Origin: a bacterium
GTDB lineage: Bacteria > Planctomycetota > UBA11346
Direction of reading: 5' to 3'
Assembly: GCA_020047915.1 (NCBI GenBank)
Contig: JAIFND010000020.1
Span: 467 to 64,466 of the forward strand
DNA length: 64,000 nt
The notes under the pieces are model-generated. The model ran no database searches. It saw nothing but the letters and a program-made list of their open reading frames with translations, and was not told the DNA's origin. Both the position numbers and the translations under genes were made by a program. Positions within the stretch are counted from its first letter, which is position 1. Every line of letters begins with the position of its first letter. Of this stretch, positions 17,999 through 62,379 are shown in pieces.

Positions 17999-20010
<2,012 letters not shown>

Positions 20011-43210: not shown

Positions 43211-43309
43211 CGTTCTAGTGGATCACTCACGGCGTGACGCCGGGAGCCGGCTACCGCTGCCGCTCCGGTCCGGTTGGCGAGGCTTCCTGATACCTTTTGG
43301 AGACCCGTC

Positions 43310-46300
43310 ATGTCCGATCAGCAGGAGCAGAAGAATATCGCGCAGGGGCTGTCCCAGCTCGGTGAGACGACGACGGCGGCCGAACTGCTGCGGCAGAAGG
43401 GTCAGACCAAGAAGCTGCGCGTCATCAGCGAGAAGCAGCTGATGGAGTGGATCCTCAAGCTGATCAGCCAGCATATGGCCAGCAAGGCCGACGCCTTCAG
43501 TGATCTGGAGAAGGCCGAGCTGCTCAAGAAGACCCAGGAGGAGCTGAACCGGCGCATCAAGCGCGAGCAGGAGGCGCAGGCCGACCGCGACCGCATGAAG
43601 GCCGAGCTCGACCAGGCGATGGCCGCGGTCAGCCAGGTGCAGAGCGGCGCCGCCAGCCAGGCCGATGTCGAGATGGCCCTCGCTGCGCTCAAGGAGAAGC
43701 TCGAACAGGCCGAGCAGATCAACCTCGATTTGCAGCAGGACAACTACGACCTGCAGGATCAGCTCAACGAGAAGATGGCGCTGCTGTCCACCACCATCGC
43801 CGAGAAGGACAAGCTGCGCGAGACCGTGCGCCACCAGATGATGCGCATGACCACCCTGTGCGAAGGGGTGCTGGGCATCGACAACGACTACTACGGCAGC
43901 CGCCATCAGGAAGAGAACCCGGTCTCCGACGAGGCGGGCCAGGATGAGGCGTTCTATCACGACTTCGACGTCGGCGCCAAGGTCATCACCACCCTGCAGG
44001 CCGACCTCACCCGTCTGCGCGGCATCGCCCAGCACCAGCAGGAGGAGGCCGACCAGAAGGCTGGCCTGCTCGAAGCCGATCTCGCCCTGCTCGAACAGCT
44101 CAAGGCAGGCAATCTGCACGCCGTCGATGTCGCCGCGCCGGTCGCCGGACTGGTCGAAGCGATGGAAGGCGCGCGTTGCGAGGCCGAAGCCTTCGAGCAG
44201 CAGGTCGCCGAGGCGACTGGTTCGAACCAGCAGCAGACCTTCACCGAACTGCCCGACGCCACCGGCGATGCCGCCGAAGTCCTCGCCGGTGCCACGTCAG
44301 TGGTGCGCGAACTCGCTGCCAGCCTGGCGCGCAACCGCAACCGTATCGCCGCGCTGAAGTCCATCGCCGATGAAAGCGACGAGGCCCGCCACAGCGTCGA
44401 AGAGGAACTGGAGGCCGAGAAGGCCGCCCTCGAACGCGTGTGCACCGCCCTGCGCCAGCGCGCCGAAGTCGATCGCCTCATCGTGCCTGGCGTCCTGGCC
44501 AACCGTGAGGCCCCCGCCGACCAGCGCGCCGCCGCGTGCAGCGAGATCGTCGATCAGCTCCAGGTTGCCAGCCCGGTCGAAGCCGCCGCGATGGAGCAGC
44601 TCGCCCTGACCGATCGTCTGGTCAAGCCTGGCTCGGCCGCACCTGTGGAAAGCGAGGTCACCGACAAGCAGCTGGTCGCCGAACGCCTGCGCAAGGCCGG
44701 CGCCGAGCTGGAACGCTACACCGTCGATCTGCAGAAGCAGCTCGAGTATGCGGCTGTGCGCGAGCGCGCCCTGGCCGAGGCGGTGCGTACCCTGGCTGCG
44801 CGCGATGCCGGACCGGATGCTCCGGCGGTGCGCGAGCTGGAACGCTCGCTGGAGCTCAAGACCGATCCGCAGCTGCTCAACGCGGCCACGGCGAAGGCCC
44901 TCGACGTGATCAGCGCGCAGGGCGGGCAGAAGGCTGCCCAGGCCGCAGCCCTCGCCGAGGATCGCGCCATCGCGCAGGAGGTCATCAAGGCGAGCCAGGG
45001 CGACACCACCTTGGCAGACAGCGCTGCTGATCTGTCCATTGCGGCAGACAATGACGCCCCTCAGCAGGCGCTGGGCGACCAGGTCCGGGAGGCCATCGCC
45101 GCCCTTGGTAAGCGTCGTGCCAATCTCGAAGAAATGCTAGCCGCTGCCCAGCAGCAGCTGGTGACCGTGCGCAGCGATCAGGACCGCGAGTCGGCGGAAA
45201 CCCTGCGCCTCCAGGCCGAGATCGACAAGGCCCGGGCCGAGGCCCAGAAATCAGCAAACGAGATCCTGCGCCAGCGTTCAGGTCGTGAGGCGGCGCTCGC
45301 CGCCCTGGACAGCATCGCCCTTGAGCTGCAGTCCCGCGTCCCCGAGGCGCACCGTGACCTGACCGACCGGCACAGCGAACCGCAGGCCCGGGCTGCTGCT
45401 GCGCTGGCCGCCTTGGCCAAGATGACCGAGGCCCGCCCGATCGAAGCCGCCGCCATCGAAGCCACCGCCGCAATCGACCGCACCCTCGGCCGCACGGGCG
45501 CCACCTCGGCGCTGGCCAGCGATCTGCGCCTGGGCGACGAGCAGCAGACCGCGACCCGCCTGCGCGAGGCGAGCCTCGCCCTCGAATCACGCATCACCAC
45601 GACCAGCGCCGAACTTGAGGCCTCGCGTGCCCGCGAGCGCGATCTGGCCAAGCAGGTGCGCGAACTGGCCGCCGCCCAGGTGGTCAATTCCGCATCAACG
45701 GTCTCGCGTGAAGGGCTGACACGTCTGGAGAAGGCGATTGTCGATGGTGGCGACATGTCCGAGGCTGCGCGCAGCGTGGTCGCCGACCTGCGCGCCAATG
45801 TCGGCAAGTCCGAAGATCAGGCCCGCTTCGAGGCTGCACGTGCGGTTGCCGCTGAACTGGTGCGCACCGCCGAGAACGACCCCGTCATGGCTGAAGCAGT
45901 CGCCGACCTCGCGGTGTCGATCGATGGCGATGCCGCCTCGTCGCCGACCCTGGTCGAAGAGGTCCGCGACGCCGTGACCAAGCTGTCGGCGCGCAAGCGT
46001 ACCCTCGAAGCCGAGAAGTCCCGACTCGCTGCCGATCTGGAGAGCGCACGCACCGACCGGACGACGACTCTGGCCAAGGCTGAAGCCGATGGCGCTTCCC
46101 GGCAGGCCGAACTTGCCCGGCTGCAGGCCGAGTTGGCGCACCTCACGGAACAACTTGAGGAGGCGCAAGCCGAGGCGAGCGAGTTTAAGGCCCGCTGCGA
46201 AGCGACCGGAACCCAGTTCAGTGGCGACATGGTCGCCCTGCGCCAGGAAAACACCACGCTCCGTCAGCGCCAGATCGAGACGGCCGCTACCGTCACCTCG

Positions 46301-46843
46301 CTGCGCCAGGCAATTGAAGCCAATGATGTCCGACTCAAGCGGCAGCGTGAAGAACTGTCCCGTGGCTTGGCCGAGCGCGACCAGTTGATCGCCGACAAGG
46401 ATCGCACCATCGATCAGCTGTCGAACCAGCGCATCGACGGCAAGGCCCTGGAAGCCAAGGTCCAGGCCCTGACCGCCGATCTTGATTCGGCCAATGATCG
46501 CATCCGCCAGCTTGAAGGCCGCTTCGGTGATCAGGCTGGGCAGATCGTCAAGACCGGTGATCTCGCCGAACTGCACAAGCGCACGATGACCGAACGTGAT
46601 CAATTGCGCGAGCAGAAGCGCTCGATCGAAGGGGATCTGGCCGATTCCAAGGCGCGCATCGATGAGCTCGCCACCGAACTGGCCGAGCTGCGCAAAGAGC
46701 ATAAGGGGCTCGTCGAAAGCCACGCCCTGGAACTGACCACCGAACGCGAGAAGGCTGTCGCGCTTCAGGAGTCCCTGCGTAAGTTCAAGGAAGAGATCAT
46801 CGGCCTGCGTGCCCGTCAGCGCAAGGTGACGGAGCCCAAGTGA
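43310..46843 (+). CDS. Giant coiled-coil-rich protein (1177 aa), function unknown
   Basis: ATG at 43310 with GGAG 7 nt upstream. Almost entirely Ala/Glu/Arg/Leu/Gln heptad-like sequence after a ~70-aa N-terminal domain (…VISEKQLMEWILKLISQHM…). Contains an internal duplicated segment. Confidence 0.8.
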   Translation: MSDQQEQKNIAQGLSQLGETTTAAELLRQKGQTKKLRVISEKQLMEWILKLISQHMASKADAFSDLEKAELLKKTQEELNRRIKREQEAQADRDRMKAELDQAMAAVSQVQSGAASQADVEMALAALKEKLEQAEQINLDLQQDNYDLQDQLNEKMALLSTTIAEKDKLRETVRHQMMRMTTLCEGVLGIDNDYYGSRHQEENPVSDEAGQDEAFYHDFDVGAKVITTLQADLTRLRGIAQHQQEEADQKAGLLEADLALLEQLKAGNLHAVDVAAPVAGLVEAMEGARCEAEAFEQQVAEATGSNQQQTFTELPDATGDAAEVLAGATSVVRELAASLARNRNRIAALKSIADESDEARHSVEEELEAEKAALERVCTALRQRAEVDRLIVPGVLANREAPADQRAAACSEIVDQLQVASPVEAAAMEQLALTDRLVKPGSAAPVESEVTDKQLVAERLRKAGAELERYTVDLQKQLEYAAVRERALAEAVRTLAARDAGPDAPAVRELERSLELKTDPQLLNAATAKALDVISAQGGQKAAQAAALAEDRAIAQEVIKASQGDTTLADSAADLSIAADNDAPQQALGDQVREAIAALGKRRANLEEMLAAAQQQLVTVRSDQDRESAETLRLQAEIDKARAEAQKSANEILRQRSGREAALAALDSIALELQSRVPEAHRDLTDRHSEPQARAAAALAALAKMTEARPIEAAAIEATAAIDRTLGRTGATSALASDLRLGDEQQTATRLREASLALESRITTTSAELEASRARERDLAKQVRELAAAQVVNSASTVSREGLTRLEKAIVDGGDMSEAARSVVADLRANVGKSEDQARFEAARAVAAELVRTAENDPVMAEAVADLAVSIDGDAASSPTLVEEVRDAVTKLSARKRTLEAEKSRLAADLESARTDRTTTLAKAEADGASRQAELARLQAELAHLTEQLEEAQAEASEFKARCEATGTQFSGDMVALRQENTTLRQRQIETAATVTSLRQAIEANDVRLKRQREELSRGLAERDQLIADKDRTIDQLSNQRIDGKALEAKVQALTADLDSANDRIRQLEGRFGDQAGQIVKTGDLAELHKRTMTERDQLREQKRSIEGDLADSKARIDELATELAELRKEHKGLVESHALELTTEREKAVALQESLRKFKEEIIGLRARQRKVTEPK

Positions 46844-47586: not shown

Positions 47587-48528
47587 CTATTTCTTCCGCT
47601 TGATGGTACTCGTCATCGAGCGGGTGAAGCGCTGGGTACCGCGCCTGAAGCGCTGCGTGCCTTCCTTCGCCTTCTCCTTGAGGAGCAGCCAGTTGCGACC
47701 CGCCACCCAGCCACCGTAGAGCAGGGCCGCGGCGCCGATCATGATGAAGCCGACGGAAAACATCTTGGAGAAGAAGCTGCGCTCCTCGGGCGGTGGTGCT
47801 CCGCGGCGGATCGCGCCAGGACGGGACGGTTGACCGCCGACCTGATCGACCACGGCGGCAGCGGCATCCGCCGCGCTCAGCACACCTTCCGGCAGGGTGC
47901 GGTTGATATTTGCCAAGGCCACGCGCGCATAGGCCGTGTCGATGGCTGCCAGTCCTTCGCGGGCGAGGGCGACCAGGCGAGGGTCATCGCCATTGCCAAG
48001 CTCTTCCAGCAAATCGACAATCTTATCCCGGCCCGAGCGTTGCATGAGCAACGGATGCAGTGCTGAACGGGCGGCATCGAAGTTCTTGTCGAGGACGGCG
48101 ATCCGCACCTTGGAGCAGCTTCCCATCGTGGAGGTGATGATGTTGTCATGCCAGGCCGACCAGGCTTCGGGAGAATCGCCACCGCGATCGCCTCCGGCAA
48201 TGGTCGCCAGGGCAGCCCGGAAGGCATCGGAACCCTGGCCTGAGGACTCACGCATGGCGTTGATCAACTGCGGCACGGCACCGTCATCATGCAGGCTTGC
48301 CGCCGCGCTGGCGGCCGCCACACGGATGTTCGGCTCGGGATCGGCTAGGCGCATGCGGACGATCTCAATCTCACGGTTCGAGCTGGGAGGCCCGCGCCGG
48401 GCGAGTTCGAACAACGCCGGCATGGCGACAGTCTTGTCCGTCGAGGACAAACGGTCTCCGAGCTCCTGCTGCTCTCCGCCAGAAAGAATGGTGACCAGCA
48501 GTACGAGGATGGCGAGACGGATGGTCAT
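47587..48528 (-). CDS. Secreted HEAT/PBS-lyase-repeat protein with C-terminal TM and basic tail
   Basis: 313 aa. Signal peptide MTIRLAILVLLVTILSG. HEAT-like repeats (DPEPNIRVAAASAAASL..., GDDPRLVALAREGLAAI). TM helix VGFIMIGAAALLYGGWV. ATGA overlap with the upstream gene. Confidence 0.7.
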   Translation of the reverse strand: MTIRLAILVLLVTILSGGEQQELGDRLSSTDKTVAMPALFELARRGPPSSNREIEIVRMRLADPEPNIRVAAASAAASLHDDGAVPQLINAMRESSGQGSDAFRAALATIAGGDRGGDSPEAWSAWHDNIITSTMGSCSKVRIAVLDKNFDAARSALHPLLMQRSGRDKIVDLLEELGNGDDPRLVALAREGLAAIDTAYARVALANINRTLPEGVLSAADAAAAVVDQVGGQPSRPGAIRRGAPPPEERSFFSKMFSVGFIMIGAAALLYGGWVAGRNWLLLKEKAKEGTQRFRRGTQRFTRSMTSTIKRKK

Positions 48529-49979
48529 GGATCATCGTACCTTACGCGCAGGGCCGGGTTTGGTTCATTCGGGTTGGTGAATTCGGCAAATCCGAGATCA
48601 TAGCTCCTCCAACCTACCACGACCAGGGAGGGCGGAAAGGGGAGTTCCAAGTCGCTCAGTGATTCGTCGTAATGGAATTTGAAGTTGCCGTTGACCTTGC
48701 CCATTTCGGTACTTTCGCGGAAACTGTCGGCGATCATCGAACCGAACATATCGAAGGTACCGTTGAGCTTGAAGGAGGCGTAGGGACAGAACAGCACTCC
48801 ACCGAGTTGCGCCGTTCCATTCATCTTGATGTCCCAGGGGACCGGGTCTTCACCCTCCGCATCCATGCCGTCGTAGAGTGAATAGAGCTGGAATGACTTG
48901 GGATTTTGCGGGCAACCTATGGTGATGTTGCCATTGATGGTGGTCTGGCCGAGATCCGCATCATAGTCGTTCTGAAAGATGCGGACGGTCGAGGTGACGG
49001 GAATGACCCAGTCCTTGGTCAGGATGATCGGTCCGTCCACGTAAATATCCACGGCCGCACCGGCTGCGATTGTGATGCCGTTGTTGACGGCGATGTCGAT
49101 CGACGTGCAGACATAGGAGCCAGAAGCCAGCTCGGCGGTCGTCTTGGTGAGCGTCCCTTTGCTTGGACCGGGCAGTTTAATGGCCGTGGCCGGTGGACTG
49201 TAGGTCAAAGGGGGTATGGGCATGGATATATTCGGATTGACGTCGCCTTTGACGTTCTCCTCCTTCTGGACCACAATACTTCCCTCAGAGGCGAGATCTC
49301 CGTTAGCCCCCGAGGCCACGGTCCCGTAGGCCGACGCGCCATGCTTCGAATCCCAACTGTCGGTGGTCGCGGAGCCCATGAATTCGTAACCCTTGCGGGC
49401 GAACATCGCTTGGCGGTAGATCGACTGTGGAAATTTGATGAACAGCGCCTCGACTCGACGGCGACGGTAGCGGTTCACATCCTCAATCGGATTCTGCGAT
49501 CCATCGGCATTGTAGAGTCGCGCCGGTCCACCGGCCGCGGCTGTCGCCGTGATCACATACATGTCCTGCACTTCGCGGGTTCCCATGATCGGTACCGTCA
49601 TCGTTCCGATCCACTTCCAGGTCGCGCGCGGCTCCAGGCCGTTGAGGCGCGATCTGCCATCGACGATCGCCGCCGTCTCGACCTCATCAGTCAGGATGGC
49701 TGCATCATCCGTGGCCGCACGATTCTTTGCGAGATTCAGTTCTGTTGACAGATTACTCAGGTTTTGCAGATGATTGAACGCCAAGTTGGCGATCGACTCC
49801 GCGCTCAAGGTTAGGGAGGTGTCGGTGACCCGGGCGTGGGATTGGCGCAGGGAACCGACCGTGGTGTCGGACAGCGCCACCGCGAGTGCCATGAGGGCCA
49901 CCAGCACCACCGTCGCAGTGACGATGGCGAAACCGCCCTTGGAGCGGTGGCTTGATGACCTGACCGGAGCGTATGTCAT
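48525..49979 (-). CDS. PilX/GspK/TadG-like minor-pilin-type protein
   Basis: 484 aa. The N-terminus KGGFAIVTATVVLVALMALAVALSD resembles PilX_N/TadG-type anchors. The C-terminal half is Gly/Asn/Thr-rich and beta-helix-like. Confidence 0.7.
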   Translation of the reverse strand: MTYAPVRSSSHRSKGGFAIVTATVVLVALMALAVALSDTTVGSLRQSHARVTDTSLTLSAESIANLAFNHLQNLSNLSTELNLAKNRAATDDAAILTDEVETAAIVDGRSRLNGLEPRATWKWIGTMTVPIMGTREVQDMYVITATAAAGGPARLYNADGSQNPIEDVNRYRRRRVEALFIKFPQSIYRQAMFARKGYEFMGSATTDSWDSKHGASAYGTVASGANGDLASEGSIVVQKEENVKGDVNPNISMPIPPLTYSPPATAIKLPGPSKGTLTKTTAELASGSYVCTSIDIAVNNGITIAAGAAVDIYVDGPIILTKDWVIPVTSTVRIFQNDYDADLGQTTINGNITIGCPQNPKSFQLYSLYDGMDAEGEDPVPWDIKMNGTAQLGGVLFCPYASFKLNGTFDMFGSMIADSFRESTEMGKVNGNFKFHYDESLSDLELPFPPSLVVVGWRSYDLGFAEFTNPNEPNPALRVRYDDP

Positions 49980-49985
49980 AAAGCC

Positions 49986-52289
49986 TCAGTAGTTCCGGGT
50001 GTAGGTGCCGACATTGCCAGCCGAATCGGTGATCGAGACGGTGATGGTCACGGTGCCGGACGTTTTGGTGGCCGAGAGCAGGAACTCGTTCGATGCCAGC
50101 GCCTTGGCCTGGCCGGTTCCGGAGGCTTCCTTGGCAACCCAGCCACGTCGTAAGGTCAGACCACCCTGGTTGTCCTGTGCGGTGAAGGTACTGTAGTTCA
50201 GCGCACTGCCTGAGGAGTTCGGAGAGACTGTGCCGGTCACCTGGAACTTCTGCGACGCATCCTCGTCGGCGTTGAGCGTCAGGGTCGGCAGATTGGGGTT
50301 GGCGGCGACAATCATTGCAACGGTCGTGCTGCCGCTGCCCGAATCGTTATACGCGGTCGCGACAACCTCATAAGTGCCCTCCTTGGCCGGCTTGCCACTC
50401 AGGGTGCCGGTGGTGGTGCTCAACGTCACGCCGTCTGGCAGCCCGCTCACGCTGTAATACTTCACCTGCGGGGAGCCGCTGATGGTCTGCGAGAAGAGCA
50501 CGCCAACCGTCCCGCGTAACGGGTTGGGCAGATAGACCGTTGGGGTACGCAGAGGGGCGACGGTGATCACAAGCGGGGACGAGCCGGTCCCCACCTTGTT
50601 GGTGGCGTAGAGGACGAGGTCAAGGGAGCCCTGGGTGGTTGGCGTCCCGACCAGACGTCCGAGGCTGGTGTCGAGGCTCAACCAGCTCGGCAGACTACCC
50701 GAGCTGCTGTTGATTTTGTAGGACGTGGGTGAGTTGCTGGCGACGATCTGATAGGAGAACTCAACCCCCACCTCCGCCGTCGCCGTGGTGGCGCTGGTGA
50801 TGATGGGGAGCGGTTCCTGTACCTGTACCGAGACCGCCGCTTCGGGGCCGGTGCCGACCTCATTGGTCGCCAAGACCGTGAAGCTGAACAAGCCGGTGTC
50901 CGGCGGTGTGCCGCTGAGCTGGCCGGAAGCCTTGTTCATGTTCAGCCACGAGGGCAGGCCAACGCCTTCCCATGCCGTGGGATTATCGGTGGCGCTCAGC
51001 TTGAAGGTGAAGGGCAGGCCGACGGTGCATACGATCGTGGCGGTGGTGGTCACGATCGGTTTTTCCGGATCCTTGGGTGTGACCAGCAGGGCGAACGGAA
51101 CTGATTCCGTGCCATTGATGTTGGTAGCCGAGATGGTCGCCGCATAGGTCGTTTCGCTGGTGATGCCGGTCGGCACATTGCCGGTGATCAAACCGGATGT
51201 CGTCGAGACGCTTAACCAACTGGGCAGACCAGACGCGCCAAAGGCGTTCGGTGATCCCGATGCCGTGATCTGGTAGCTGCAGGTGGCGCCTGATTTGAGG
51301 GTCATCGCCAGGGCGCTGGTGATCTCGGGCAAGGCTCCCTTGATGACCATGGAGACCTCCATCGCATCAGAACCGGCTTCGTTGAAGGCTGAGACGACAG
51401 CGGTGAAGGTGCCTTGACTGGTCGGGGTACCCGAGATCCGGCCACTGTAGGTGTCGTAGATCAGGCCGGCGGGCAGGCTTGAGCCGGCGTAGCGGGTGGG
51501 ATCGTTGGTCGCCACGATATCGTAGATGAACGGGCTGCCGACATTGCCGCTGCAGGTGTTCGCGCTGGTGATCTCGGGCGCGGTCAGGCCGGTCGAGTCG
51601 AACATCGAACTGCGCAGGTAGACGGCAGTTTCGACGGCGCGCCACGGACGCTGATCGTCATCCAGGTTTCTGGTTTCGGTGTTGGAGATGAAGGCAGCGG
51701 CGTGGACCGAGAGGCGATTGCCCACGACGGCCGCCTGGCTGGGGTCGAGCTGTACGATCTGGAAACCACGTCGAGGCGCCTCTCCAGGTGCCGGGGTGTA
51801 TTCCCAGGCAAGGCCGCTCGACAGGGCGCGTTCCGCTTCGATGGTCCCGGTGGGTACCCCGTTGGTGCCCAGGCTGACGACCGTGCGGTAGAGCGTACCA
51901 GTGCCATCGCCATTCTCCGTGAAGCGCAGGACCACGCCGCGTTCGAACTTGATCATCCGGTCGAGGGATGGCGCTTCGCCTCCATTCACCACATTGAAGC
52001 CGGTCGAGACCTTGAAGCTGTAGTAATCCGAACCGCTCTGCACCGAGGTCCAGGCCGTGCCATCCAGGTAGATGCGGTTGACGTCGGCGTAGCGCAGTTC
52101 GCTGGCCACATCGCGGATCGCACGCGCTGCCTTGTCTCCGGCGTCATCGGTCGTGGTGATGGTGGTCTGCATCTGGGTGCCGGACTGCATGGCGCCGAGG
52201 ATGGCGGCCATCACGCTGGCGAAGATCGCCATGGCGATGATCGCTTCGATCATGGTGAGGGCGGCGCGACCGAGGATCGATGTGCTCAT
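49986..52289 (-). CDS. Giant pseudopilin-like adhesin: prepilin-like N-terminus + five He_PIG/Ig-like repeats
   Basis: 767 aa. N-terminus GRAALTMIEAIIAMAIFASVMAAIL. Five ~85-aa repeats with the pattern LP.(G/W)L......G.(I/L)SGTP...G...F.V.A.N..G. Confidence 0.8.
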   Translation of the reverse strand: MSTSILGRAALTMIEAIIAMAIFASVMAAILGAMQSGTQMQTTITTTDDAGDKAARAIRDVASELRYADVNRIYLDGTAWTSVQSGSDYYSFKVSTGFNVVNGGEAPSLDRMIKFERGVVLRFTENGDGTGTLYRTVVSLGTNGVPTGTIEAERALSSGLAWEYTPAPGEAPRRGFQIVQLDPSQAAVVGNRLSVHAAAFISNTETRNLDDDQRPWRAVETAVYLRSSMFDSTGLTAPEITSANTCSGNVGSPFIYDIVATNDPTRYAGSSLPAGLIYDTYSGRISGTPTSQGTFTAVVSAFNEAGSDAMEVSMVIKGALPEITSALAMTLKSGATCSYQITASGSPNAFGASGLPSWLSVSTTSGLITGNVPTGITSETTYAATISATNINGTESVPFALLVTPKDPEKPIVTTTATIVCTVGLPFTFKLSATDNPTAWEGVGLPSWLNMNKASGQLSGTPPDTGLFSFTVLATNEVGTGPEAAVSVQVQEPLPIITSATTATAEVGVEFSYQIVASNSPTSYKINSSSGSLPSWLSLDTSLGRLVGTPTTQGSLDLVLYATNKVGTGSSPLVITVAPLRTPTVYLPNPLRGTVGVLFSQTISGSPQVKYYSVSGLPDGVTLSTTTGTLSGKPAKEGTYEVVATAYNDSGSGSTTVAMIVAANPNLPTLTLNADEDASQKFQVTGTVSPNSSGSALNYSTFTAQDNQGGLTLRRGWVAKEASGTGQAKALASNEFLLSATKTSGTVTITVSITDSAGNVGTYTRNY
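50294..51584 (-). repeat. Five tandem ~255-nt Ig-like (He_PIG-type) coding repeats
   Basis: The repeat units begin APEITSANT..., ALPEITSALA..., EKPIVTTTAT..., PLPIITSATT..., LRTPTVYLPN... in the 767-aa translation. Confidence 0.7.
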
Positions 52290-52296
52290 GGGTACC

Positions 52297-52770
52297 TCAA
52301 CGGCGATCGGTGAAGAAGAAGTGCTGCTCGATCATGGCCTGGCCGTTCTGGTCGTTCCAGATCGCGCCGATGCGCAGGCAGGTGCGTCGCAGCGAGCCTG
52401 GCACCACCTGGACCCGCTCGATCACCCCGGCCTCGGGGAGTGGCAGCGGGCTGATCTCGGTGTCGATGCCGGGTGACAGGCGCGGGATGGCGAAGTAGAT
52501 CCTGTCGCTGCCGGCGAAGCGGGCCTGCAGGGCCTGGTCGTCGAGCGCCTGCAGCACCTCGATCTGATTCTGGATCTCGGCGATGGCAGCGTTGGTGTTC
52601 ATGCTGCGCTGGCTGGTCAGGTGGGCGTTGGCGATCGCGCCGATGCCGGCGAACAACCCGGTCGCCAGCAGGGCGCTGGCGACCATGATCTCGACCAGGG
52701 TCATGCCCTGGCGGGCAGGCCCGGATGGGTGGGCGGGTGGGCAGGGGCTGCAGGTCGACATGGGGTTCAC
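52297..52770 (-). CDS. Prepilin-type N-terminal cleavage/methylation domain protein (pseudopilin)
   Basis: Canonical ARQG|MTLVEIMVASALLATG with Glu at +5. The ORF starts at GTG 52770, with an ATG alternative at 52761. Confidence 0.82.
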   Translation of the reverse strand: MNPMSTCSPCPPAHPSGPARQGMTLVEIMVASALLATGLFAGIGAIANAHLTSQRSMNTNAAIAEIQNQIEVLQALDDQALQARFAGSDRIYFAIPRLSPGIDTEISPLPLPEAGVIERVQVVPGSLRRTCLRIGAIWNDQNGQAMIEQHFFFTDRR

Positions 52771-52794
52771 CCTTGGTTATCCTACCCGTCATGT

Positions 52795-52809
52795 GCAAGC
52801 GTCGTGCCA
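52795..52809 (-). promoter_or_regulatory. Sigma-54 promoter TGGCAC-N5-TTGCA driving the pseudopilin operon
   Basis: The minus strand reads cTTGGCACgacgcTTGCAca. The GC of the -12 element lies ~25-35 nt upstream of the GTG/ATG start. Confidence 0.78.
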
Positions 52810-52814
52810 AGTCA

Positions 52815-52826
52815 GAAACGCGTTTC
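52815..52826. promoter_or_regulatory. Perfect 12-nt palindrome GAAACGCGTTTC next to the -24 element
   Basis: Read directly in the 136-nt divergent intergenic region. Confidence 0.35.
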
Positions 52827-52843: not shown

Positions 52844-52856
52844 TCTGCCGGGCAGA
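52844..52856. promoter_or_regulatory. Inverted repeat TCTGCC-G-GGCAGA (candidate enhancer/UAS site 1)
   Basis: It uses the same hexamer as the 20-nt palindrome 11 nt away, and lies ~40 nt upstream of the -24 element. Confidence 0.45.
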
Positions 52857-52866
52857 ACCGCCCATG

Positions 52867-52886
52867 CCGGGGCAGATCTGCCCCGG
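52867..52886. promoter_or_regulatory. Perfect 20-nt palindrome CCGGGGCAGA|TCTGCCCCGG (candidate enhancer/UAS site 2)
   Basis: Read directly. It lies ~60-80 nt upstream of the -24 element and 21 nt before the activator ATG. Confidence 0.5.
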
Positions 52887-52906: not shown

Positions 52907-54319
52907 ATGCAGGTTCTGCTGGTTGACGACCATCTGGATGCGCTGGACGCGCTGGCCGGCTTCGTCGAGCAGCTCGGCCATCAGGTACGGCGGGCCGGGG
53001 ATGGCCGGCGGGCCCTCGACGCGGTGCGTTCGCAGCGACCCCACCTGGTGCTCAGTGACTTGCGCATGCCAGTTCTGGATGGCCTGGGTCTGCTTGCAGC
53101 CTTGGAGGAGTTCGACGACCCCCCGCCGTTCGCGCTGATGACCGCCTTCTCCGACGCCCAGACCGCGGTCGATGCGATGCGTCTCGGTGCCATCGACTAC
53201 CTGCGCAAGCCGGTGGACGTGCGCGAGCTGCACCGGTTGCTTGATCGCGTCGAACTCGCTTCTGGACCACCCCCAGCGCCCGACCCCATCAAGGATCTGA
53301 CTCCTGGCGTGGATGGTCTGGTGGTCGCCGGACCGGCAACCGCTGGAGTGGTGGCCCTCGCTGACCGCCTGCACCAGGCTTCCCAGTTGTCCTGCCTGAT
53401 CGAGGCGGAGACCGGCTGCGGCAAGGAACTGATCGCCAAGCGCATCCATCATGGCGGCCGAGAGGGCAACCACTCGCCCTTCATCGCGGTCAACTGCGCC
53501 GCCATACCTGCAGGACTCTTCGAGGCCGAGCTGTTCGGCTATGTCCCTGGTGCCTTCACCGGCGCCGCGACGGGCGGTTCGACCGGCCGACTCGCCCAGG
53601 CGGGTGATGGCACGGTATTCCTCGACGAGATTGGAGAGCTGCCCCTGGACCAGCAGGCCAAGCTGCTGCGTGTGCTCGAAGACCGTAGCTGGTATCCGGT
53701 CGGTGGCAGCAAGCTCATGCAGTTGCGCGCACGCATCGTCTGCGCCAGCAACCGCAGCCTGTTCCAGGCGGCGCGGGAGGGGCGATTCCGCGAGGACCTG
53801 CTCTACCGGCTCAAAGTCGGTTTCATCCGCATTCCACCGCTGCGCGAACGTCGCGAGGAGATCGCGCCGCTGGCACGCTCCATCCTCACCTCGATCCGGG
53901 CGACGCAGGTGGCCGGCTTCCGCGATCTCGCCGATGGCTGTGCCGCGATCCTGCGCCAGGCCTCCTGGCCGGGCAACATCCGGCAACTGCGTCATGTCCT
54001 GGAACGCTTGTCGGTCATGTCCGGTGACGGTGGACTGCTGACCGCGACCCTGCTGACCCAGGCGATGAGTGAGGAAGAGGGCAGCGGCCAACGACCGGCA
54101 GTGGGTCATCGTCTGACCCTGGGCTGCACGCCACCTGTCGAATTGCGCTTGCCTGCCGAGTCCTTCGACCTCGAAGCCTGGAATCGCGCTCTGATTGCGG
54201 CCGCCCTGCGTCTGTGCGATGGATCGCCGGTGCGTACCGCGCAATATCTCGGCATCTCGCGCAAGGTCCTGTACACCCTGCGTAAACATTACGGACTGAT
54301 GCAGGCGGCCGATGAGTGA
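52907..54319 (+). CDS. Sigma-54-dependent response regulator (NtrC family: REC + AAA+ + HTH)
   Basis: 470 aa from the ATG at 52907. REC domain: MQVLLVDD...LVLSDLRMPVLDG...K. AAA+ domain: ETGCGKELIA, GAFTGA motif (GYVPGAFTGA), VFLDEIGEL. C-terminal Fis-type HTH: RTAQYLGISRKVLYTLRK. Confidence 0.92.
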   Translation: MQVLLVDDHLDALDALAGFVEQLGHQVRRAGDGRRALDAVRSQRPHLVLSDLRMPVLDGLGLLAALEEFDDPPPFALMTAFSDAQTAVDAMRLGAIDYLRKPVDVRELHRLLDRVELASGPPPAPDPIKDLTPGVDGLVVAGPATAGVVALADRLHQASQLSCLIEAETGCGKELIAKRIHHGGREGNHSPFIAVNCAAIPAGLFEAELFGYVPGAFTGAATGGSTGRLAQAGDGTVFLDEIGELPLDQQAKLLRVLEDRSWYPVGGSKLMQLRARIVCASNRSLFQAAREGRFREDLLYRLKVGFIRIPPLRERREEIAPLARSILTSIRATQVAGFRDLADGCAAILRQASWPGNIRQLRHVLERLSVMSGDGGLLTATLLTQAMSEEEGSGQRPAVGHRLTLGCTPPVELRLPAESFDLEAWNRALIAAALRLCDGSPVRTAQYLGISRKVLYTLRKHYGLMQAADE

Positions 54320-55136
54320 CGCCTTCGTCATCCTGCTGGTGTCCCTGACGACGGGCGGACTCGGACTGCTGCTCGGAATCATGGTCGGACGTCGCACCAC
54401 GTCGGCAGCGAGCGGATCACCCGAGACGGGTCCGGTTCCGCCGGTCGCCGTGGCGCGCAACGACGCTCTGCCTGCCCTGGCGGCAGGCATCGTACATGAA
54501 GTGGCGCAACCATTGTCCGCTGCCCGGGTATCCATCGAAGGCCTGCACTACCTGCGCCAGCTCGGGCGTCAGCCGACGCCAGAGCAGGTAGCCCGGACCC
54601 TTGATCGGGTCGGCATGAGCCTGGTGGCGATGACCCAGATCCTCGACCATCTGCGCAGCCTTGCGGGTGTCGGCTCCCGCTCGCTGCTGCCGGTACGCAT
54701 CGAGGAGGTCGTCGCCAACCTGATCGCCGATCGGGCGAACTGGCTGCGTTTCAGTGATGTCGAGATGCGCCTCGAAGTGGCCGGCTCTCTTCCGGTGCGG
54801 GCAGACCCCTCCGGATTACGGCTGGTTCTCGCCAATCTGGCACGCAATGCCGCCGAGGCGGTCAACGACCTGCCGGCTGAGCGGCACTGGGTGCGCTTCG
54901 TCGTAGGTCCCGGTCATGTCCTGACGATCGAGGATCCTGGCCCGGGCATCCCACCAGCGCTCGCCGCCCGGCTCTTCGAGCCGTTCATCTCCAGCCGCGG
55001 TGAGGCGCGCGGCGTCGGTCTTAGCCTGGCCAAGGCCGCGGTCGAGCGCATGGATGGAACCCTCGCCTTCGCCCCGCGTCCGGGTGGAGGCACGATCTTC
55101 ACCGTGCAGTTGAAGCCTGCGGAAGCCCAGCCATGA
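54312..55136 (+). CDS. Sensor histidine kinase (single TM, HisKA-like + HATPase_c)
   Basis: 274 aa. H-box AAGIVHEVAQPLSA. N-box LANLARNAAEA. G-boxes DPGPGI and GVGLSLA. 8-nt overlap with the activator gene. Confidence 0.8.
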   Translation: MSDAFVILLVSLTTGGLGLLLGIMVGRRTTSAASGSPETGPVPPVAVARNDALPALAAGIVHEVAQPLSAARVSIEGLHYLRQLGRQPTPEQVARTLDRVGMSLVAMTQILDHLRSLAGVGSRSLLPVRIEEVVANLIADRANWLRFSDVEMRLEVAGSLPVRADPSGLRLVLANLARNAAEAVNDLPAERHWVRFVVGPGHVLTIEDPGPGIPPALAARLFEPFISSRGEARGVGLSLAKAAVERMDGTLAFAPRPGGGTIFTVQLKPAEAQP

Positions 55137-56791
55137 GCCTATTCCTGCGTCTGATCATGCTGTGCGCCCTGGTGGCCATACTCGCCGTCTCGGTCAGCGC
55201 CCTGGCGGCGATGCGTGCTGTATCCACGGCGCTCGATGCCCAGGAAGAGATCATCGGCGAGCGCGCTGCTGCCCAATTCCTCCGCAACATGGATGCTCAG
55301 CTGGCGATGCTGGCCTTTGAGGTCAAGGACTACGCCGCCTGGGATGAGATGTACGTCAACAGCCCACGGCCGCCTGTACCCTGGGCGCGCATCAACTTGA
55401 TCCCCGGCGCTGAATCGGGACGTCTGACGCAGGTCCTCTGCATCGTGGACCAGGGCAAGGTCACAGGCCGCTATACCTATCGTGGGCAGCGGGGTGATGT
55501 GCCGAGCGCTGATGACCGGGCCGCCCCCAGTGAGCTGATCGGCCTTGCCGGCCGCAGCGAGACGAACGGGATCGCCTGGCTGGCCGGGGCTCCGGCGCTG
55601 TGGGCGCGTGCCGACATCCTCCACTCCGATGGTTCGGGTCCACCCAGAGGCCAATTGATCGCGCTGGCCTATCTCAACACCCGTGTCGTTGAACGTCTGG
55701 CCATCCACGGCTGGTCCTGGCGTCTGCTCGGCCCTCAGGGCAGCGAAGGCGAAACGCGCTCTGGCGAAGCTGTCCAACGCGTTGCTCTGCCGCCGGCTGC
55801 CGAGGGTCTGGCGGCCCTGCTGAGCCGCCCACGCGAGGTCGAAGCTCAGTTGCGCAGCCGGACGCTGACCGCCCTCTCTGTTGCTGGCGGGATCGTCGCG
55901 GCCATTGCATTGCTCATCGGTGTGCTGCTCGGCTGGCACTGGCTGCGTCCGTTGCACGACCTTGCGTCCGCCTGTCGTCAGCGAACTCAGGGCATCGATG
56001 TCGCGATCCCTGATGGCGGGGATCTGCCGGAAACCCGCGTGCTGGCCGCCGATCTGCGCCGGCTGATCGAGATCGAACGTGCCGACCGCCGTCGTCTGGC
56101 TGCTGAGTTGGCCGAGGCGGAAAGCGCCAACACCCAGCAACGCCGTTGGCTGGTCCGCCTCGCCCACGATGTCGGTTCGCCGGTGCAGGTCATCGCCGCG
56201 GCGGTACGGCAACTTGAAGAACGCGGTGGTCTCCTGCCTCCGGAAGAACTTTCCAGACTCGGTACTGCGACAGCCCAGTTGATGGGCCGCGTCGAAGAGG
56301 CGAGCGGTCTGGCCGAGGGGCTGGGTGGTGACCGGCCATCCTCGGGCACCACGACCTTGTCCACCTATACCCTGGCCATCATCGACCTGCTGCGCGCGCG
56401 TGCCGCTGAACGGCAGGTACGCATCGACTCCGAGGTGTCGGGCGAGGCGGACATCGACGCCAGCCTGATCACCCCCGTGCTGGTCAATCTGCTTGCCAAC
56501 GCGATCACCGCGAGCCCGATGGGCAGCACGGTCACGCTGCGTGGCGGGACGACGGACTCGACTGTCTGGTTTGAGGTGGGTGATTCCGGGTCAGGCATGG
56601 ACGCCTCCCAGCGACTGCGCATCAGCCATGCCTGCAATCGAGGCGAGGTGATCCCCGGTGAAGCCGGTTTCGGTCTCGGCCTGACGCTGGCCATCGCCAA
56701 TGCGGCCCGGGCCGGGGGTCGGCTGCGTCTGGGCGATGGACCGGCTACGCTGTTCCGCCTCGAACTGCCGGTGCATCAGCGACCAAACTGA
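55133..56791 (+). CDS. Sensor histidine kinase with CHASE4-like periplasmic domain
   Basis: 552 aa. The N-terminal TM plus DYAAWDEMY pattern is recalled from CHASE4. Second TM. H-box LVRLAHDVGSPVQ. NLLANAI and GDSGSGM motifs. ATGA overlap with the upstream kinase. Confidence 0.78.
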   Translation: MSLFLRLIMLCALVAILAVSVSALAAMRAVSTALDAQEEIIGERAAAQFLRNMDAQLAMLAFEVKDYAAWDEMYVNSPRPPVPWARINLIPGAESGRLTQVLCIVDQGKVTGRYTYRGQRGDVPSADDRAAPSELIGLAGRSETNGIAWLAGAPALWARADILHSDGSGPPRGQLIALAYLNTRVVERLAIHGWSWRLLGPQGSEGETRSGEAVQRVALPPAAEGLAALLSRPREVEAQLRSRTLTALSVAGGIVAAIALLIGVLLGWHWLRPLHDLASACRQRTQGIDVAIPDGGDLPETRVLAADLRRLIEIERADRRRLAAELAEAESANTQQRRWLVRLAHDVGSPVQVIAAAVRQLEERGGLLPPEELSRLGTATAQLMGRVEEASGLAEGLGGDRPSSGTTTLSTYTLAIIDLLRARAAERQVRIDSEVSGEADIDASLITPVLVNLLANAITASPMGSTVTLRGGTTDSTVWFEVGDSGSGMDASQRLRISHACNRGEVIPGEAGFGLGLTLAIANAARAGGRLRLGDGPATLFRLELPVHQRPN

Positions 56792-58323: not shown

Positions 58324-58980
58324 TCAGGGCATCAGATCGCTGATCGGCAGCCAGCAGGCCTGACCGTCCGGCAGGGTGACGCCGCTGCGCTGATCCCAGG
58401 TGCGCCCGCTGCGCTGCAGCAGCGTGCCGGCGGGGACGGCGCGGATCGGCGCCCCGGTGCTGTCCAGGGCCTGGGTGTCGCGCACCGTCGCTGCCCAGTG
58501 TGGCGAGCGGTCGAGATGCACGGCCATCAGGCCGGGGGCGGCGAGTACCAACAGGACCCCCGAACTGGTCAGCAGAGCAGGTCGCCAGCGCGAGCGGCCG
58601 AAGCCCAGACCCAGACCAAGGCCAGCCAGGCTCAGGACGGCGACGGCCGCCCAGCCTGTGCCGGGCAGGGCGATGGGGCCGGCGCGCTCGCACCACGTGG
58701 TCGGCAGCGCAACGCCCAGGGCGCGCAGTGCATTGCGCGGGGCGGGTTGCTCGGGGGCGAGGTTGTGGGCCTGCACCAGACTGGCCACGGCGGGACCGTG
58801 CTGGCCGGCGGCGGCAGCAGCGAGACCTGCGTCAAGCCAGGCATCCCAGCGTCCGTTGTCCCGGGCCGTGGCGATCAACGGTGCAACCGCCTCATCCGGC
58901 CGACCCTGCGACCAGGCGGCGTAGGGATCGGCGGCGCTCAGCAGACCTGAGACGGCGAACAAGAGCAGGCCACGCTTCAT
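58324..58980 (-). CDS. batE: BatE-like protein (signal peptide, TPR-like region, TM, SH3-like C-terminus)
   Basis: 218 aa. The domain order and operon position after batD match Bat operons. ATGA-type overlap with batD. Confidence 0.62.
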   Translation of the reverse strand: MKRGLLLFAVSGLLSAADPYAAWSQGRPDEAVAPLIATARDNGRWDAWLDAGLAAAAAGQHGPAVASLVQAHNLAPEQPAPRNALRALGVALPTTWCERAGPIALPGTGWAAVAVLSLAGLGLGLGFGRSRWRPALLTSSGVLLVLAAPGLMAVHLDRSPHWAATVRDTQALDSTGAPIRAVPAGTLLQRSGRTWDQRSGVTLPDGQACWLPISDLMP

Positions 58981-62197: not shown

Positions 62198-62213
62198 ATG
62201 ACGAGATGGTGCA

Positions 62214-62362: not shown

Positions 62363-62379
62363 AATAGCTGTTGGCATAA

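What the first reader, a model, noticed from the sequence alone, without database searches (positions are those of the whole stretch)
47587..52770. Stand-alone minor-pilin/adhesin module: prepilin, 767-aa Ig-repeat pseudopilin, PilX/GspK-like protein and a HEAT-repeat protein
Four co-directional genes are separated by 6 nt, 6 nt and a 4-nt overlap. They are a canonical prepilin (G|MTLVE), a giant protein with a degenerate prepilin-like N-terminus (LTMIEAIIAMAIF) followed by five He_PIG/Ig-like repeats, a PilX/GspK-like protein, and a secreted HEAT-repeat protein with a C-terminal anchor. The window contains no secretin, assembly ATPase, platform protein, prepilin peptidase or major pilin. The layout suggests a tip or priming complex that displays a large Ig-repeat adhesin on a pilus or pseudopilus built elsewhere. 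The HEAT-repeat partner has no counterpart in standard T2SS or T4P operons that I know.
Basis: partly seen in the sequence, partly recalled or inferred. Interest (0 to 1): 0.65.

Follow-up and report, generated by a model that had tools for sequence, protein, structure and literature searches.

The report
Sigma-54-switched pilus-tip gene cassette
A Planctomycetota genome carries a self-contained, signal-switched set of genes that probably builds a specialised tip for a type IV pilus-like filament whose assembly machine lies elsewhere; it is a new variant of a known design in a phylum whose fibre components are unknown.

Summary
Four tightly packed minus-strand genes encode:
- g1, a prepilin;
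- g2, a 767-aa pilin-like protein with five He_PIG repeats;
- g3, a 484-aa pilin-like protein without Glu5;
- g4, a signal-peptide, HEAT-repeat protein with a C-terminal membrane anchor.

No other pilin and no filament machinery lies in the 64 kb.

1. The g3 model best matches Thermus ComZ and ice-binding proteins, so it is a capping pilin with a beta-solenoid.
2. The He_PIG block is a lineage-specific insertion between g2's pilin domain and a conserved C-terminal domain. Distant homologues have a short low-complexity linker there.
3. g4 follows g3 in 18 of 18 Planctomycetota loci and in 0 of 26 loci from other phyla.
4. The unit is larger than reported. A divergent sigma-54 activator response regulator and two histidine kinases travel with the operon. 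An exact sigma-54 promoter and two GGGC-N6-GCCC palindromes sit upstream of g1, and both elements recur across loci.

Best reading: an inducible minor-pilin tip or priming cassette. Function and cognate machine are untested. It is a new variant of a known kind.

The parts
55133..56791 (+). HK2: histidine kinase with a periplasmic CHASE4 sensor between two transmembrane segments
   Evidence: Pfam CHASE4 E 1.5e-13 and HATPase_c. Transmembrane segments at 1-32 and 243-272. Conserved next to the module in related loci.
54312..55136 (+). HK1: short histidine kinase with one N-terminal transmembrane segment and no sensor domain
   Evidence: Pfam HATPase_c and HisKA. Transmembrane segment at 3-26. 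8-nt overlap with the RR gene (54312-54319) and 4-nt overlap with HK2 (55133-55136). Conserved in related loci.
52907..54319 (+). RR: NtrC/PilR-type response regulator that activates sigma-54 (REC + sigma-54 AAA+ + HTH_8), divergent from g1
   Evidence: Pfam Sigma54_activat E 2e-52, Response_reg, AAA_lid_14 and HTH_8. Called as 470 aa in public assemblies. 47-57% identical copies sit next to the module in L006, L015, L018-L021, L024 and L025.
52870..52883 (.). Upstream activator site 1: palindrome GGGCAGATCTGCCC, 75 nt upstream of the -24 element
   Evidence: GGGC-N6-GCCC occurs 18 times in nine 200-nt upstream zones against 7 times in about 189 kb elsewhere (Poisson P about 1e-37).
52850..52863 (.). 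Upstream activator site 2: GGGCGGTTCTGCCC (read on the minus strand), 20 nt from site 1
   Evidence: The same 20-nt spacing occurs in L053 and about 22 nt in L006 and L018; other loci differ.
52815..52826 (.). Perfect 12-nt palindrome GAAACGCGTTTC just upstream of the promoter; role unknown
   Evidence: Sequence; palindrome list.
52794..52809 (-). Sigma-54 promoter TGGCAC-N5-TTGCA, about 33 nt upstream of the g1 ATG
   Evidence: The only exact match in 64 kb on both strands; 0.03 expected by chance. The GGCAC-N6-TGC core lies upstream of g1 in 6 of 12 loci against a background of 0.038 per kb; L053 also has it.
52297..52761 (-). g1: small prepilin (154 aa), GspI/PilV-like minor pilin; leader ends ...ARQG|MTLVE
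   Evidence: N_methyl above the Pfam cut-off. Across 13 orthologues, 10 hit gspI (best 2.9e-7) and 9 hit PilV, all below the curated cut-offs. Glu5 is invariant.
51585..52289 (-). g2 N-domain (aa 1-235): pilin-like module with class III signal RAA|LTMIE
   Evidence: Alignment A1: Glu invariant, G or A at -1. AF2 model pLDDT 78, helix 4-65 followed by beta strands. Foldseek found no significant match.
50370..51584 (-). g2 stalk (aa about 236-640): five He_PIG Ig-like repeats, a lineage-specific insertion
   Evidence: Pfam He_PIG in 5 stretches, E 6.7e-43. Replaced by a 20-40 aa T/E/P-rich linker in 330-350 aa homologues (L008, L011-L013, L015, L052).
49986..50369 (-). g2 C-terminal domain (aa about 641-767): conserved beta-rich head ending ...TR(N/D/T)Y
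   Evidence: Alignment A3 of 16 sequences, including short-form homologues. An HMM of A3 finds it in most Planctomycetota loci and in no locus from other phyla. No family assigned; the best PDB profile hit is an FN3 domain at E 0.023.
48525..49979 (-). g3: capping pilin without Glu5 (KGG|FAIVT) with a beta-solenoid inserted before the last strand (ComZ-like); contains Pfam DUF7305
   Evidence: Alignment A2: G16 and A18 invariant, no Glu at +5. AF2 pLDDT 82. Foldseek top hit ComZ 6qvi, E 3.3e-5, followed by ice-binding proteins.
47587..48528 (-). g4: signal peptide, PBS-lyase-type HEAT repeats, C-terminal transmembrane anchor and basic tail
   Evidence: Found directly after g3 in 18 of 18 Planctomycetota loci and in 0 of 26 loci from other phyla.

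Best explanation
This is a seven-gene, self-contained cassette that builds, on demand, a specialised tip or priming complex for a type IV filament.

Shown by the data:
- Two membrane histidine kinases, one with a periplasmic CHASE4 sensor and one with only a membrane anchor, and an NtrC/PilR-type response regulator sit divergent from the four-gene operon.
- Two GGGC-N6-GCCC palindromes and an exact sigma-54 promoter lie between them.
- The three pilin-like proteins carry class III signals.

Inferred:
- A signal makes the regulator bind the palindromes and open the sigma-54 promoter, so g1-g4 are made together.
- A prepilin peptidase encoded elsewhere processes g1, g2 and g3 in the inner membrane.
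- They assemble like GspI-GspJ-GspK or PilV-PilW-PilX. g3 has no Glu5 and a bulky beta-solenoid, so it sits at the very top as cap and plug, with g1 and g2 beneath it.
- A pilus or pseudopilus machine and a major pilin encoded elsewhere polymerise under this primer and push it outward.
- g2 holds a conserved C-terminal domain at the end of a five-Ig stalk. I estimate the stalk at about 20 nm from typical Ig-domain size; this was not measured. That domain and the solenoid are the likely ligand-binding surfaces.
- g4, a periplasmic HEAT-repeat protein tethered to the inner membrane, is a Planctomycetota-specific assembly or docking factor for this complex. This is the weakest step.
For: Genes and domains.

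Class III signals:
- Glu5 is conserved in g1 (A5) and g2 (A1).
- g3 keeps an invariant Gly at -1 but has no Glu5 (A2). The literature states this as the hallmark of the capping subunit PilX (10.64898/2026.02.12.705559); that GspK also lacks Glu5 is my own knowledge.

g3 structure:
- The model has pLDDT 82, with helix 15-72, a pilin sheet at 116-182, a solenoid at about 190-440 and a last strand at 452-462.
- Foldseek ranks ComZ first and ice-binding proteins next. These correspond to the beta-solenoid relatives reported for ComZ, where the solenoid is likewise inserted before the last strand and forces a tip position (PMC6561018).

Gene order and context:
- The small, medium, large order parallels I-J-K. 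g1 orthologues weakly hit GspI, PilV and XpsI.
- The four-gene core recurs with different flanks and no machinery within 10 kb.
- The two-component system is linked in most Planctomycetota loci, down to 24% g3 identity.

Cis elements:
- Sigma-54 promoter, with 0.03 expected by chance in the window, and recurrent across loci.
- GGGC-N6-GCCC palindromes enriched about 270-fold, P about 1e-37.

Precedents:
- Separate minor-pilin sets priming specialised filaments on a shared machine, in cyanobacteria (10.64898/2026.02.12.705559).
- Pilin modules carrying grafted domains including PF05345 (PMC8179133).
Against: - No machinery, major pilin or prepilin peptidase could be located; the rest of the genome was out of reach.
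- No GspH/FimU-type adaptor pilin is in the operon.
- g2's pilin fold rests on the signal motif and secondary-structure topology only. Foldseek gave no significant hit.
- The ComZ match has low TM-scores (0.15-0.24) and there is no detectable sequence similarity (profile search against PDB).
- g1's GspI/PilV hits and g3's GspK/PilX_N hits are all below curated cut-offs and cover mainly the N-terminal helix.
- Nothing here shows interaction among the proteins, surface exposure, or what g4 does.
- rpoN was not seen in the window.
Confidence: 0.6

Rival explanations
1. The triad caps a periplasmic type II secretion pseudopilus, acting as a GspI-J-K analogue. It serves secretion of a particular cargo and does not form a surface pilus.
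For: - The gene order and sizes parallel gspI-J-K.
- g1 orthologues hit gspI and XpsI models as well as PilV.
- ComZ's pilin domain is itself closest to GspK (PMC6561018).
- In L053 a GspG/DUF1559-like prepilin follows g4.
Against: - A five-Ig stalk carrying a distal domain is hard to reconcile with a short periplasmic piston.
- g3 has a beta-solenoid, not the GspK alpha-domain, and misses the GspK model (E 0.11).
- No gsp genes lie nearby in any locus.
Confidence: 0.15
2. It is the DNA-receptor tip of a competence pilus, working like ComZ-PilA2 in Thermus.
For: The best structural match of g3 is ComZ, a DNA-binding tip pilin encoded next to small GspI/J-like pilins (PMC6561018). Cyanobacteria have a dedicated competence minor-pilin set with a solenoid PilX (10.64898/2026.02.12.705559).
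Against: - No sequence similarity to ComZ.
- No competence genes in the window.
- The Ig stalk, the conserved C-domain and the HEAT partner have no ComZ-locus counterpart.
- The ComZ authors note that the solenoid fold itself is not diagnostic of DNA binding.
Confidence: 0.1
3. The proteins never enter a filament. Their pilin-like helices simply anchor a periplasmic or envelope complex (solenoid, Ig stalk and HEAT scaffold) in the inner membrane. The short kinase HK1 might monitor that complex.
For: - No machinery or major pilin is linked in any locus.
- g4 is membrane-anchored and strictly co-inherited.
- HK1 has only a membrane anchor, which fits intramembrane sensing.
Against: - Conservation of the cleavage-site Gly/Ala and of Glu5 in g1 and g2, and its specific absence in g3, is the signature of ordered filament assembly.
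- The ComZ-like insertion topology is known only from tip pilins (PMC6561018; 10.64898/2026.02.12.705559).
Confidence: 0.1

Closest known systems
ComZ-PilA2 competence-pilus tip of Thermus thermophilus (PDB 6QVI; PMC6561018)
   Same: - A large pilin-like protein whose pilin fold is interrupted, before the last strand, by a triangular beta-solenoid resembling ice-binding proteins.
- It is encoded directly after small GspI/J-like pilins and is argued to sit at the tip.
- The g3 model retrieves ComZ first and ice-binding proteins next.
   Different: - No detectable sequence similarity.
- The Thermus locus also holds pilA1 (PMC6561018); I recall it as GspH-like and next to the major pilin gene.
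- It has no He_PIG pilin, and I know of no HEAT partner or dedicated sigma-54 two-component system there.
- DNA binding is shown for ComZ and untested here.
Cyanobacterial core minor-pilin sets with beta-solenoid PilX (bioRxiv 10.64898/2026.02.12.705559)
   Same: - Several minor-pilin sets prime different filaments.
- PilX carries an ice-binding-like solenoid, proposed to plug the tip where PilY1 is absent.
- PilX lacks Glu5.
   Different: A different phylum. I found no mention of a HEAT-repeat partner, a He_PIG stalk or sigma-54 control in the passages I read, and membership was not tested by sequence.
T2SS GspI-GspJ-GspK, and the T4aP FimU-PilVWX-PilY1 priming complexes
   Same: - A small, medium, large gene order.
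- A cap subunit without Glu5.
- Weak profile hits of g1 to GspI, PilV and XpsI.
- These operons can lie apart from the machinery and be under two-component control (own knowledge: Pseudomonas fimU-pilVWXY1E, Myxococcus clusters).
   Different: - GspK has an alpha-domain, not a solenoid.
- There is no GspH/FimU adaptor and no PilY1.
- All hits are below curated cut-offs.
Modular type IV pilins (S. sanguinis PilB; the N_methyl + PF05345 architecture; PMC8179133)
   Same: A pilin module with a grafted non-pilin module. N_methyl + PF05345 is listed among the 15 commonest architectures; one of the 15 examples is from a Planctomycetes bacterium, but the text does not say which architecture it represents.
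   Different: Here the He_PIG repeats look like a spacer inserted between the pilin module and a conserved terminal domain. The pilin is also part of a fixed four-gene set.
PilS-PilR / sigma-54 control of pilin genes
   Same: An NtrC-type response regulator with REC, sigma-54 AAA+ and Fis-type HTH domains. A sigma-54 promoter in front of a pilin gene.
   Different: - The target is a minor-pilin operon, not the major pilin.
- There are two kinases, one CHASE4 and one anchor-only, not a six-transmembrane PilS (PilS topology from own knowledge).
- The binding motif GGGC-N6-GCCC is defined here only by conservation.
Verru_Chthon cassette proteins B and C (TIGR02598, TIGR02599)
   Same: A bioinformatically defined multi-gene cassette of prepilin-like proteins in Verrucomicrobia. 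Profile lengths of 151 and 361 aa parallel g1 and the short-form g2. There are weak N-terminal hits.
   Different: Scores are far below the cut-offs (for example 24 against 256.5 bits). The window proteins do not hit these models at all. No literature was found.

Membership tests
Type IV pilin-like proteins (class III signal peptide) | Short basic leader ending in Gly (rarely Ala) at -1, then about 20 hydrophobic residues | tested here: met
   - g1: ARQG|MTLVEIMVASALL..., N_methyl 22.8 bits against a cut-off of 21.2.
- g2: RAA|LTMIE, with G or A at -1 in 13 orthologues.
- g3: KGG|FAIVT, with Gly invariant.
- Hydrophobic stretches confirmed.
Type IV pilin-like proteins (class III signal peptide) | Glu at position +5 of the mature protein in all subunits except the cap | tested here: met
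   Invariant in g1 (E24 of A5) and g2 (E15 of A1). Absent in all 22 g3 homologues.
Type IV pilin-like proteins (class III signal peptide) | Alpha-beta pilin fold: a long N-terminal helix packed on an antiparallel sheet | tested here: inconclusive
   The g2 N-domain model has a helix at 4-65 plus 7-8 strands, pLDDT 78, but Foldseek found no significant PDB match. The g3 model has a helix and sheet and matches ComZ. g1 was not modelled.
Type IV pilin-like proteins (class III signal peptide) | Cleavage and N-methylation by a prepilin peptidase, and assembly by a type IV filament machine | not testable with these tools
   There is no peptidase or machinery in the window. The rest of the genome was not available.
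GspK / PilX capping minor pilin | Match to the curated family models (NCBIfam T2SS_GspK, Pfam PilX_N, T2SSK) | tested here: not met
   GspK E 0.11, 12.1 bits against a cut-off of 130. PilX_N E 0.39, 11.2 against 25.5. g3 works like a cap subunit but is not a member of these sequence families.
ComZ-type beta-solenoid tip pilin | Pilin domain with an ice-binding-protein-like beta-solenoid inserted between the penultimate and last strands | tested here: met
   Model topology. Foldseek: ComZ 6qvi E 3.3e-5 to 7.5e-5, probability 0.80-0.98; ice-binding proteins with TM (target) 0.45-0.52. Caveat: TM-scores to ComZ are low, at 0.15-0.24.
ComZ-type beta-solenoid tip pilin | Binds a partner GspI-like pilin and DNA | not testable with these tools
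   This needs biochemistry or a multimer prediction; neither was available.
Modular pilins (PMC8179133) | N-terminal pilin motif plus one or more domains not specific to pilus biology | tested here: met
   g2 has a class III signal plus five PF05345 stretches. This architecture is listed in the paper.
Sigma-54-dependent two-component regulation (NtrC/PilR type) | Regulator with REC, sigma-54 interaction AAA+ and HTH_8 domains | tested here: met
   Response_reg 1.5e-24, Sigma54_activat 2e-52, HTH_8 1e-4.
Sigma-54-dependent two-component regulation (NtrC/PilR type) | A -24/-12 promoter (GG-N10-GC) with upstream activator sites in front of the target operon | tested here: met
   Exact TGGCAC-N5-TTGCA, 0.03 expected by chance. 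Conserved across loci. Paired palindromes enriched, P about 1e-37. Actual RpoN dependence was not tested.
Canonical T2SS or T4P gene cluster | Secretin, assembly ATPase, platform protein, prepilin peptidase or major pilin encoded with the minor pilins | tested here: not met
   None in the 64-kb window, and none within 10 kb in the related loci with gene tables or in L033.
Verru_Chthon cassette (TIGR02598/TIGR02599) | Score above the curated cut-off of the cassette models | tested here: not met
   The window proteins give no hit at E up to 1. Relatives reach only 20-32 bits against cut-offs of 51 and 256.

The most novel reading that the evidence does not exclude
The cassette may be a portable, signal-inducible 'tip cartridge' that re-targets a housekeeping type IV filament machine in Planctomycetota. 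Its strictly co-inherited HEAT-repeat membrane protein would be a previously unknown class of tip-assembly factor, taking over jobs done elsewhere by FimU or PilY1. The solenoid plus the stalk-borne C-domain would be the ligand-binding head, possibly glycan-binding, of the fibres reported to bind dextran in Planctomycetes. The molecular players of those fibres are still unknown (PMC5394234, PMC12673574).
Probability: 0.25. Interest if true: 0.7.

Novelty: new variant of a known kind. Interest (0 to 1): 0.5.

Why it matters
Type IV filaments gain new functions mainly through their tip subunits. Nothing is known about the components of planctomycetal fibres, even though fibres of cultured species bind polysaccharide and have been proposed to feed an unusual uptake route.

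This cassette offers a concrete, testable candidate:
- three pilin-like proteins with a clear predicted assembly order;
- a strictly linked new partner, the HEAT-repeat membrane protein;
- a complete predicted on-switch: sensor kinases, a sigma-54 activator, its binding palindromes and the promoter.

The comparison also shows how such tips evolve. The same conserved head domain sits on a short linker in some lineages and on a five-Ig stalk in this one. Finally, it extends the ComZ/PilX solenoid-cap design from Thermus and cyanobacteria to Planctomycetota and Verrucomicrobiota. In these phyla the family is large (2977 cluster representatives at E up to 0.001), and the public sources hold no functional names for its members.

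Tried and rejected
- A homologue search with only the first 240 aa of g2 returned nothing, not even the protein itself. The full-length query worked. I treat the first result as an index artefact, not as evidence.
- Foldseek of the g2 N-domain model against the PDB gave no significant match. Most solved pilins lack the long N-terminal helix that dominates this model.
- Profile searches of g1, the g2 N-domain and g3 against PDB sequences found only N-terminal-helix matches to pilins at E 0.1-2, or nothing. The g2 C-domain gave only a marginal FN3 hit.
- A strict sigma-54 regular expression matched only the window. Related loci needed a relaxed -24/-12 core.
- The sigma-70 promoter and intrinsic terminator scans gave nothing useful in this region.
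- Literature searches for DUF7305, Verru_Chthon, and HEAT repeats together with minor pilins returned no papers.
- I considered the neighbouring 1189-aa coiled-coil protein and the class II aldolase as module members. I rejected both because they are absent next to the module in other genomes.
- I considered membership in the GspK/PilX_N and Verru_Chthon families and rejected it on score.
- I could not search the source genome for its pilus machinery.

Full report
**Observation**

The four minus-strand ORFs are present as described. They are g1 at 52297-52770, g2 at 49986-52289 (767 aa), g3 at 48525-49979 (484 aa) and g4 at 47587-48528 (313 aa). The better start for g1 is ATG 52761, which has an AAGG 8 nt upstream and gives the 154 aa called in public assemblies. 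The gaps are 7 nt and 6 nt, followed by a 4-nt overlap. Third-position GC of 0.72-0.92 marks these as the coding frames in a 68% GC genome.

Pfam confirms the domain content:
- g1 carries a prepilin motif above the cut-off.
- g2 carries five He_PIG stretches (E 6.7e-43) and a sub-threshold prepilin motif.
- g3 carries DUF7305 (E 1.8e-12).
- g4 has a near-threshold HEAT_2 hit.

The g4 hit becomes solid at family level. Seven of 8 orthologues hit HEAT_2, the best at 5e-15, and the family profile matches designed PBS-lyase-type HEAT proteins.

Pfam scans of about 45 likely genes across the window found no secretin, ATPase, platform protein or peptidase. A six-frame motif scan found the class III signal motif only in g1 and g2, plus one irrelevant match inside a kinase gene.

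The DNA comes from a Planctomycetota metagenome-assembled genome. NCBI names three of the proteins 'hypothetical' and g1 at best 'prepilin-type N-terminal cleavage/methylation domain-containing protein'.

**The unit is larger than the finding**

A response regulator with receiver, sigma-54-interaction and Fis-type HTH domains lies divergent from g1 at 52907-54319. Two histidine kinases follow it at 54312-55136 and 55133-56791. One kinase has a periplasmic CHASE4 domain between two membrane segments. The other has only an N-terminal membrane anchor.

The 145-nt intergenic region holds an exact sigma-54 promoter, TGGCAC-N5-TTGCA, at 52794-52809 on the operon strand. It is the only exact match in 64 kb, where 0.03 are expected. 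Upstream of it are two 14-nt palindromes of the form GGGC-N6-GCCC, 20 nt apart.

Both elements recur in related loci:
- The -24/-12 core lies upstream of g1 in 6 of 12 loci, against a background of 0.038 per kb.
- The palindrome occurs 18 times in nine 200-nt upstream zones, against 7 times in about 189 kb elsewhere (P about 1e-37).

**Conservation**

I looked up g3 homologues in public assemblies and in species-representative genomes. The set g1-g2-g3-g4 recurs in many Planctomycetota genomes, with flanking genes that differ from case to case and no filament machinery within 10 kb.

The regulator and kinases are adjacent in most of these loci, even where g3 is only 24-25% identical.

An HMM of g4 finds a homologue immediately after g3 in all 18 Planctomycetota loci that extend far enough. 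It finds none in the 26 loci from Verrucomicrobiota and Gemmatimonadota that share only the solenoid part of g3.

In Verrucomicrobiota the solenoid protein is again preceded by two small prepilins. In one locus, two such triads flank a sigma-54 activator.

A profile of the g3 family retrieves 2977 cluster representatives at E up to 0.001 and 61 at E up to 1e-30. The broad family is therefore common, and the sources give it no functional name.

**What the proteins are**

*g1.* It has a canonical class III signal with invariant Glu5. Its orthologues give weak, sub-threshold hits to GspI, PilV and XpsI, which mainly cover the N-terminal helix.

*g2.* The N-terminus is a real class III signal. The position before the cut is Ala here and Gly in several orthologues. 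The motif (F/M/L)(T/S/N)xxE follows, and Glu5 is invariant. Its N-domain model (pLDDT 78) is a 62-residue helix followed by beta strands. Foldseek found no significant PDB match, so the pilin fold is supported by motif and topology only.

Comparison with distant homologues changes the picture of the 'giant Ig adhesin'. Proteins of 330-350 aa in other loci consist of the same N-domain, a 20-40 residue low-complexity linker, and the same C-terminal domain ending in ...TR(N/D/T)Y. The five He_PIG repeats are therefore a lineage-specific insertion that replaces the linker. What is conserved, and so probably functional, is the distal domain.

*g3.* It keeps the invariant Gly and hydrophobic helix but never has Glu at +5. 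Its model (pLDDT 82) shows a helix, a small sheet, a long beta-solenoid and a final conserved strand. Foldseek ranks ComZ of Thermus thermophilus first and ice-binding proteins next. The ComZ paper describes this combination: a GspK-like pilin domain with an ice-binding-like solenoid inserted before the last strand, too bulky to sit anywhere but the tip, and binding the neighbouring GspI-like pilin PilA2 (PMC6561018). A 2026 preprint reports the same architecture for all cyanobacterial PilX proteins and proposes that the solenoid plugs the tip where PilY1 is missing. There is no detectable sequence similarity between g3 and ComZ, and TM-scores are low. The claim is therefore one of architecture, not family membership.

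*g4.* It has a Sec-type signal peptide, HEAT repeats, a conserved W-x-x-W motif, a C-terminal membrane segment and a strongly basic tail. This predicts a periplasmic domain tethered to the inner membrane.

**Mechanism**

Taken together, the evidence points to an inducible tip or priming cassette.

Shown:
- the gene set;
- the class III signals, with Glu5 present in g1 and g2 and absent in g3;
- the ComZ-like model of g3;
- strict co-inheritance of the four genes;
- linkage to a sigma-54 activator;
- conserved promoter and activator-site motifs.

Inferred:
- A signal sensed by the kinases activates the regulator, which binds the palindromes and fires the sigma-54 promoter.
- g1-g3 are processed and assemble in the I-J-K manner, with g3 as the cap.
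- A machine and a major pilin encoded elsewhere extend the filament beneath them.
- The solenoid and the stalk-borne C-domain bind a ligand.
- g4 chaperones or docks the complex.

The role of g4 is the least supported step. I put the overall reading at 0.6.

The rivals cannot be excluded without the rest of the genome and experiments. They are a periplasmic type II secretion pseudopilus tip, a ComZ-like DNA receptor, and a non-filament membrane-anchored complex.

**Comparison with known systems, and novelty**

Each element has a precedent:
- the I-J-K order and Glu5-less cap;
- the ComZ/PilX solenoid pilin;
- modular pilins carrying PF05345, listed among the commonest architectures, with a Planctomycetes protein among the 15 illustrated examples (PMC8179133);
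- sigma-54 and two-component control of pilin genes;
- minor-pilin sets encoded away from the machine.

What is not described, as far as the searchable literature shows, is the following:
- this fixed combination in Planctomycetota;
- the strictly linked HEAT-repeat membrane protein;
- the stalk-plus-head design of g2;
- the dedicated regulatory circuit with its binding motif.

I therefore file it as a new variant of a known kind, not as a new kind. It fails the curated models for GspK, PilX_N and the Verru_Chthon cassette, so it should not be named as any of those.

**Why it could matter**

Fibres of cultured Planctomycetes bind dextran and have been proposed to feed an uptake route whose players are unknown (PMC5394234; PMC12673574). 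A signal-switched tip cassette with candidate ligand-binding surfaces, possibly for glycans, is a reasonable candidate for that role. I give the link only about one chance in four.

Noticed in passing
window 8832-20010 (+): An outer-membrane efflux protein gene is followed by three unusually long HlyD-type membrane-fusion genes (833, 1056 and 672 aa) and a MacB-type ABC/FtsX transporter. This is an efflux or secretion operon with three adaptor proteins.
   Followed up: no
window 6016-8718 (-): A 900-aa fusion of FolD (methylene-THF dehydrogenase/cyclohydrolase) with a homocysteine S-methyltransferase domain.
   Followed up: no
window 43274-46843 (+): A 1189-aa Glu/Ala/Leu/Gln-rich, coiled-coil-like protein with no Pfam hit. 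It overlaps the start of a class II aldolase gene by 4 nt. It is not conserved next to the module in other genomes.
   Followed up: partly
window 58977-63986 (-): A Bat-like operon: BatD, two He_PIG proteins (one with TPR repeats) and two VWA proteins. He_PIG domains therefore also occur outside the pilin gene in this window.
   Followed up: no
window 31707-32594 (+); L053 13485-14225: A bacterial RIO1-type kinase gene lies in the window. Another RIO1 gene lies about 1 kb from the cassette in L053. This may be coincidence.
   Followed up: no
window 52815-52826: A perfect 12-nt palindrome GAAACGCGTTTC sits 5 nt upstream of the -24 promoter element. It is not the conserved GGGC-N6-GCCC motif, and its role is unknown.
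   Followed up: partly
L033 8352-14372: In a Verrucomicrobiota genome, two convergent triads (139-aa prepilin, 167-aa prepilin, 425-aa DUF7305 protein) flank a sigma-54 activator that lacks a receiver domain. There is no HEAT protein.
   Followed up: partly
L053 12645-13364: An extra 239-aa GspG/DUF1559-like prepilin follows the HEAT gene in one related cassette. It could be a cognate adaptor or major subunit there.
   Followed up: no
L008 6765-7878 versus L009 4573-5670: The HEAT gene is split into two ORFs in one assembly and intact (365 aa) in a near-identical contig. This is a frameshift or an assembly error.
   Followed up: no
window 54312-55136 (+): The short kinase HK1 has only an N-terminal membrane anchor and no sensor domain. 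This layout would fit sensing within the membrane, as reported for PilS and pilins (own knowledge). It was not tested.
   Followed up: no
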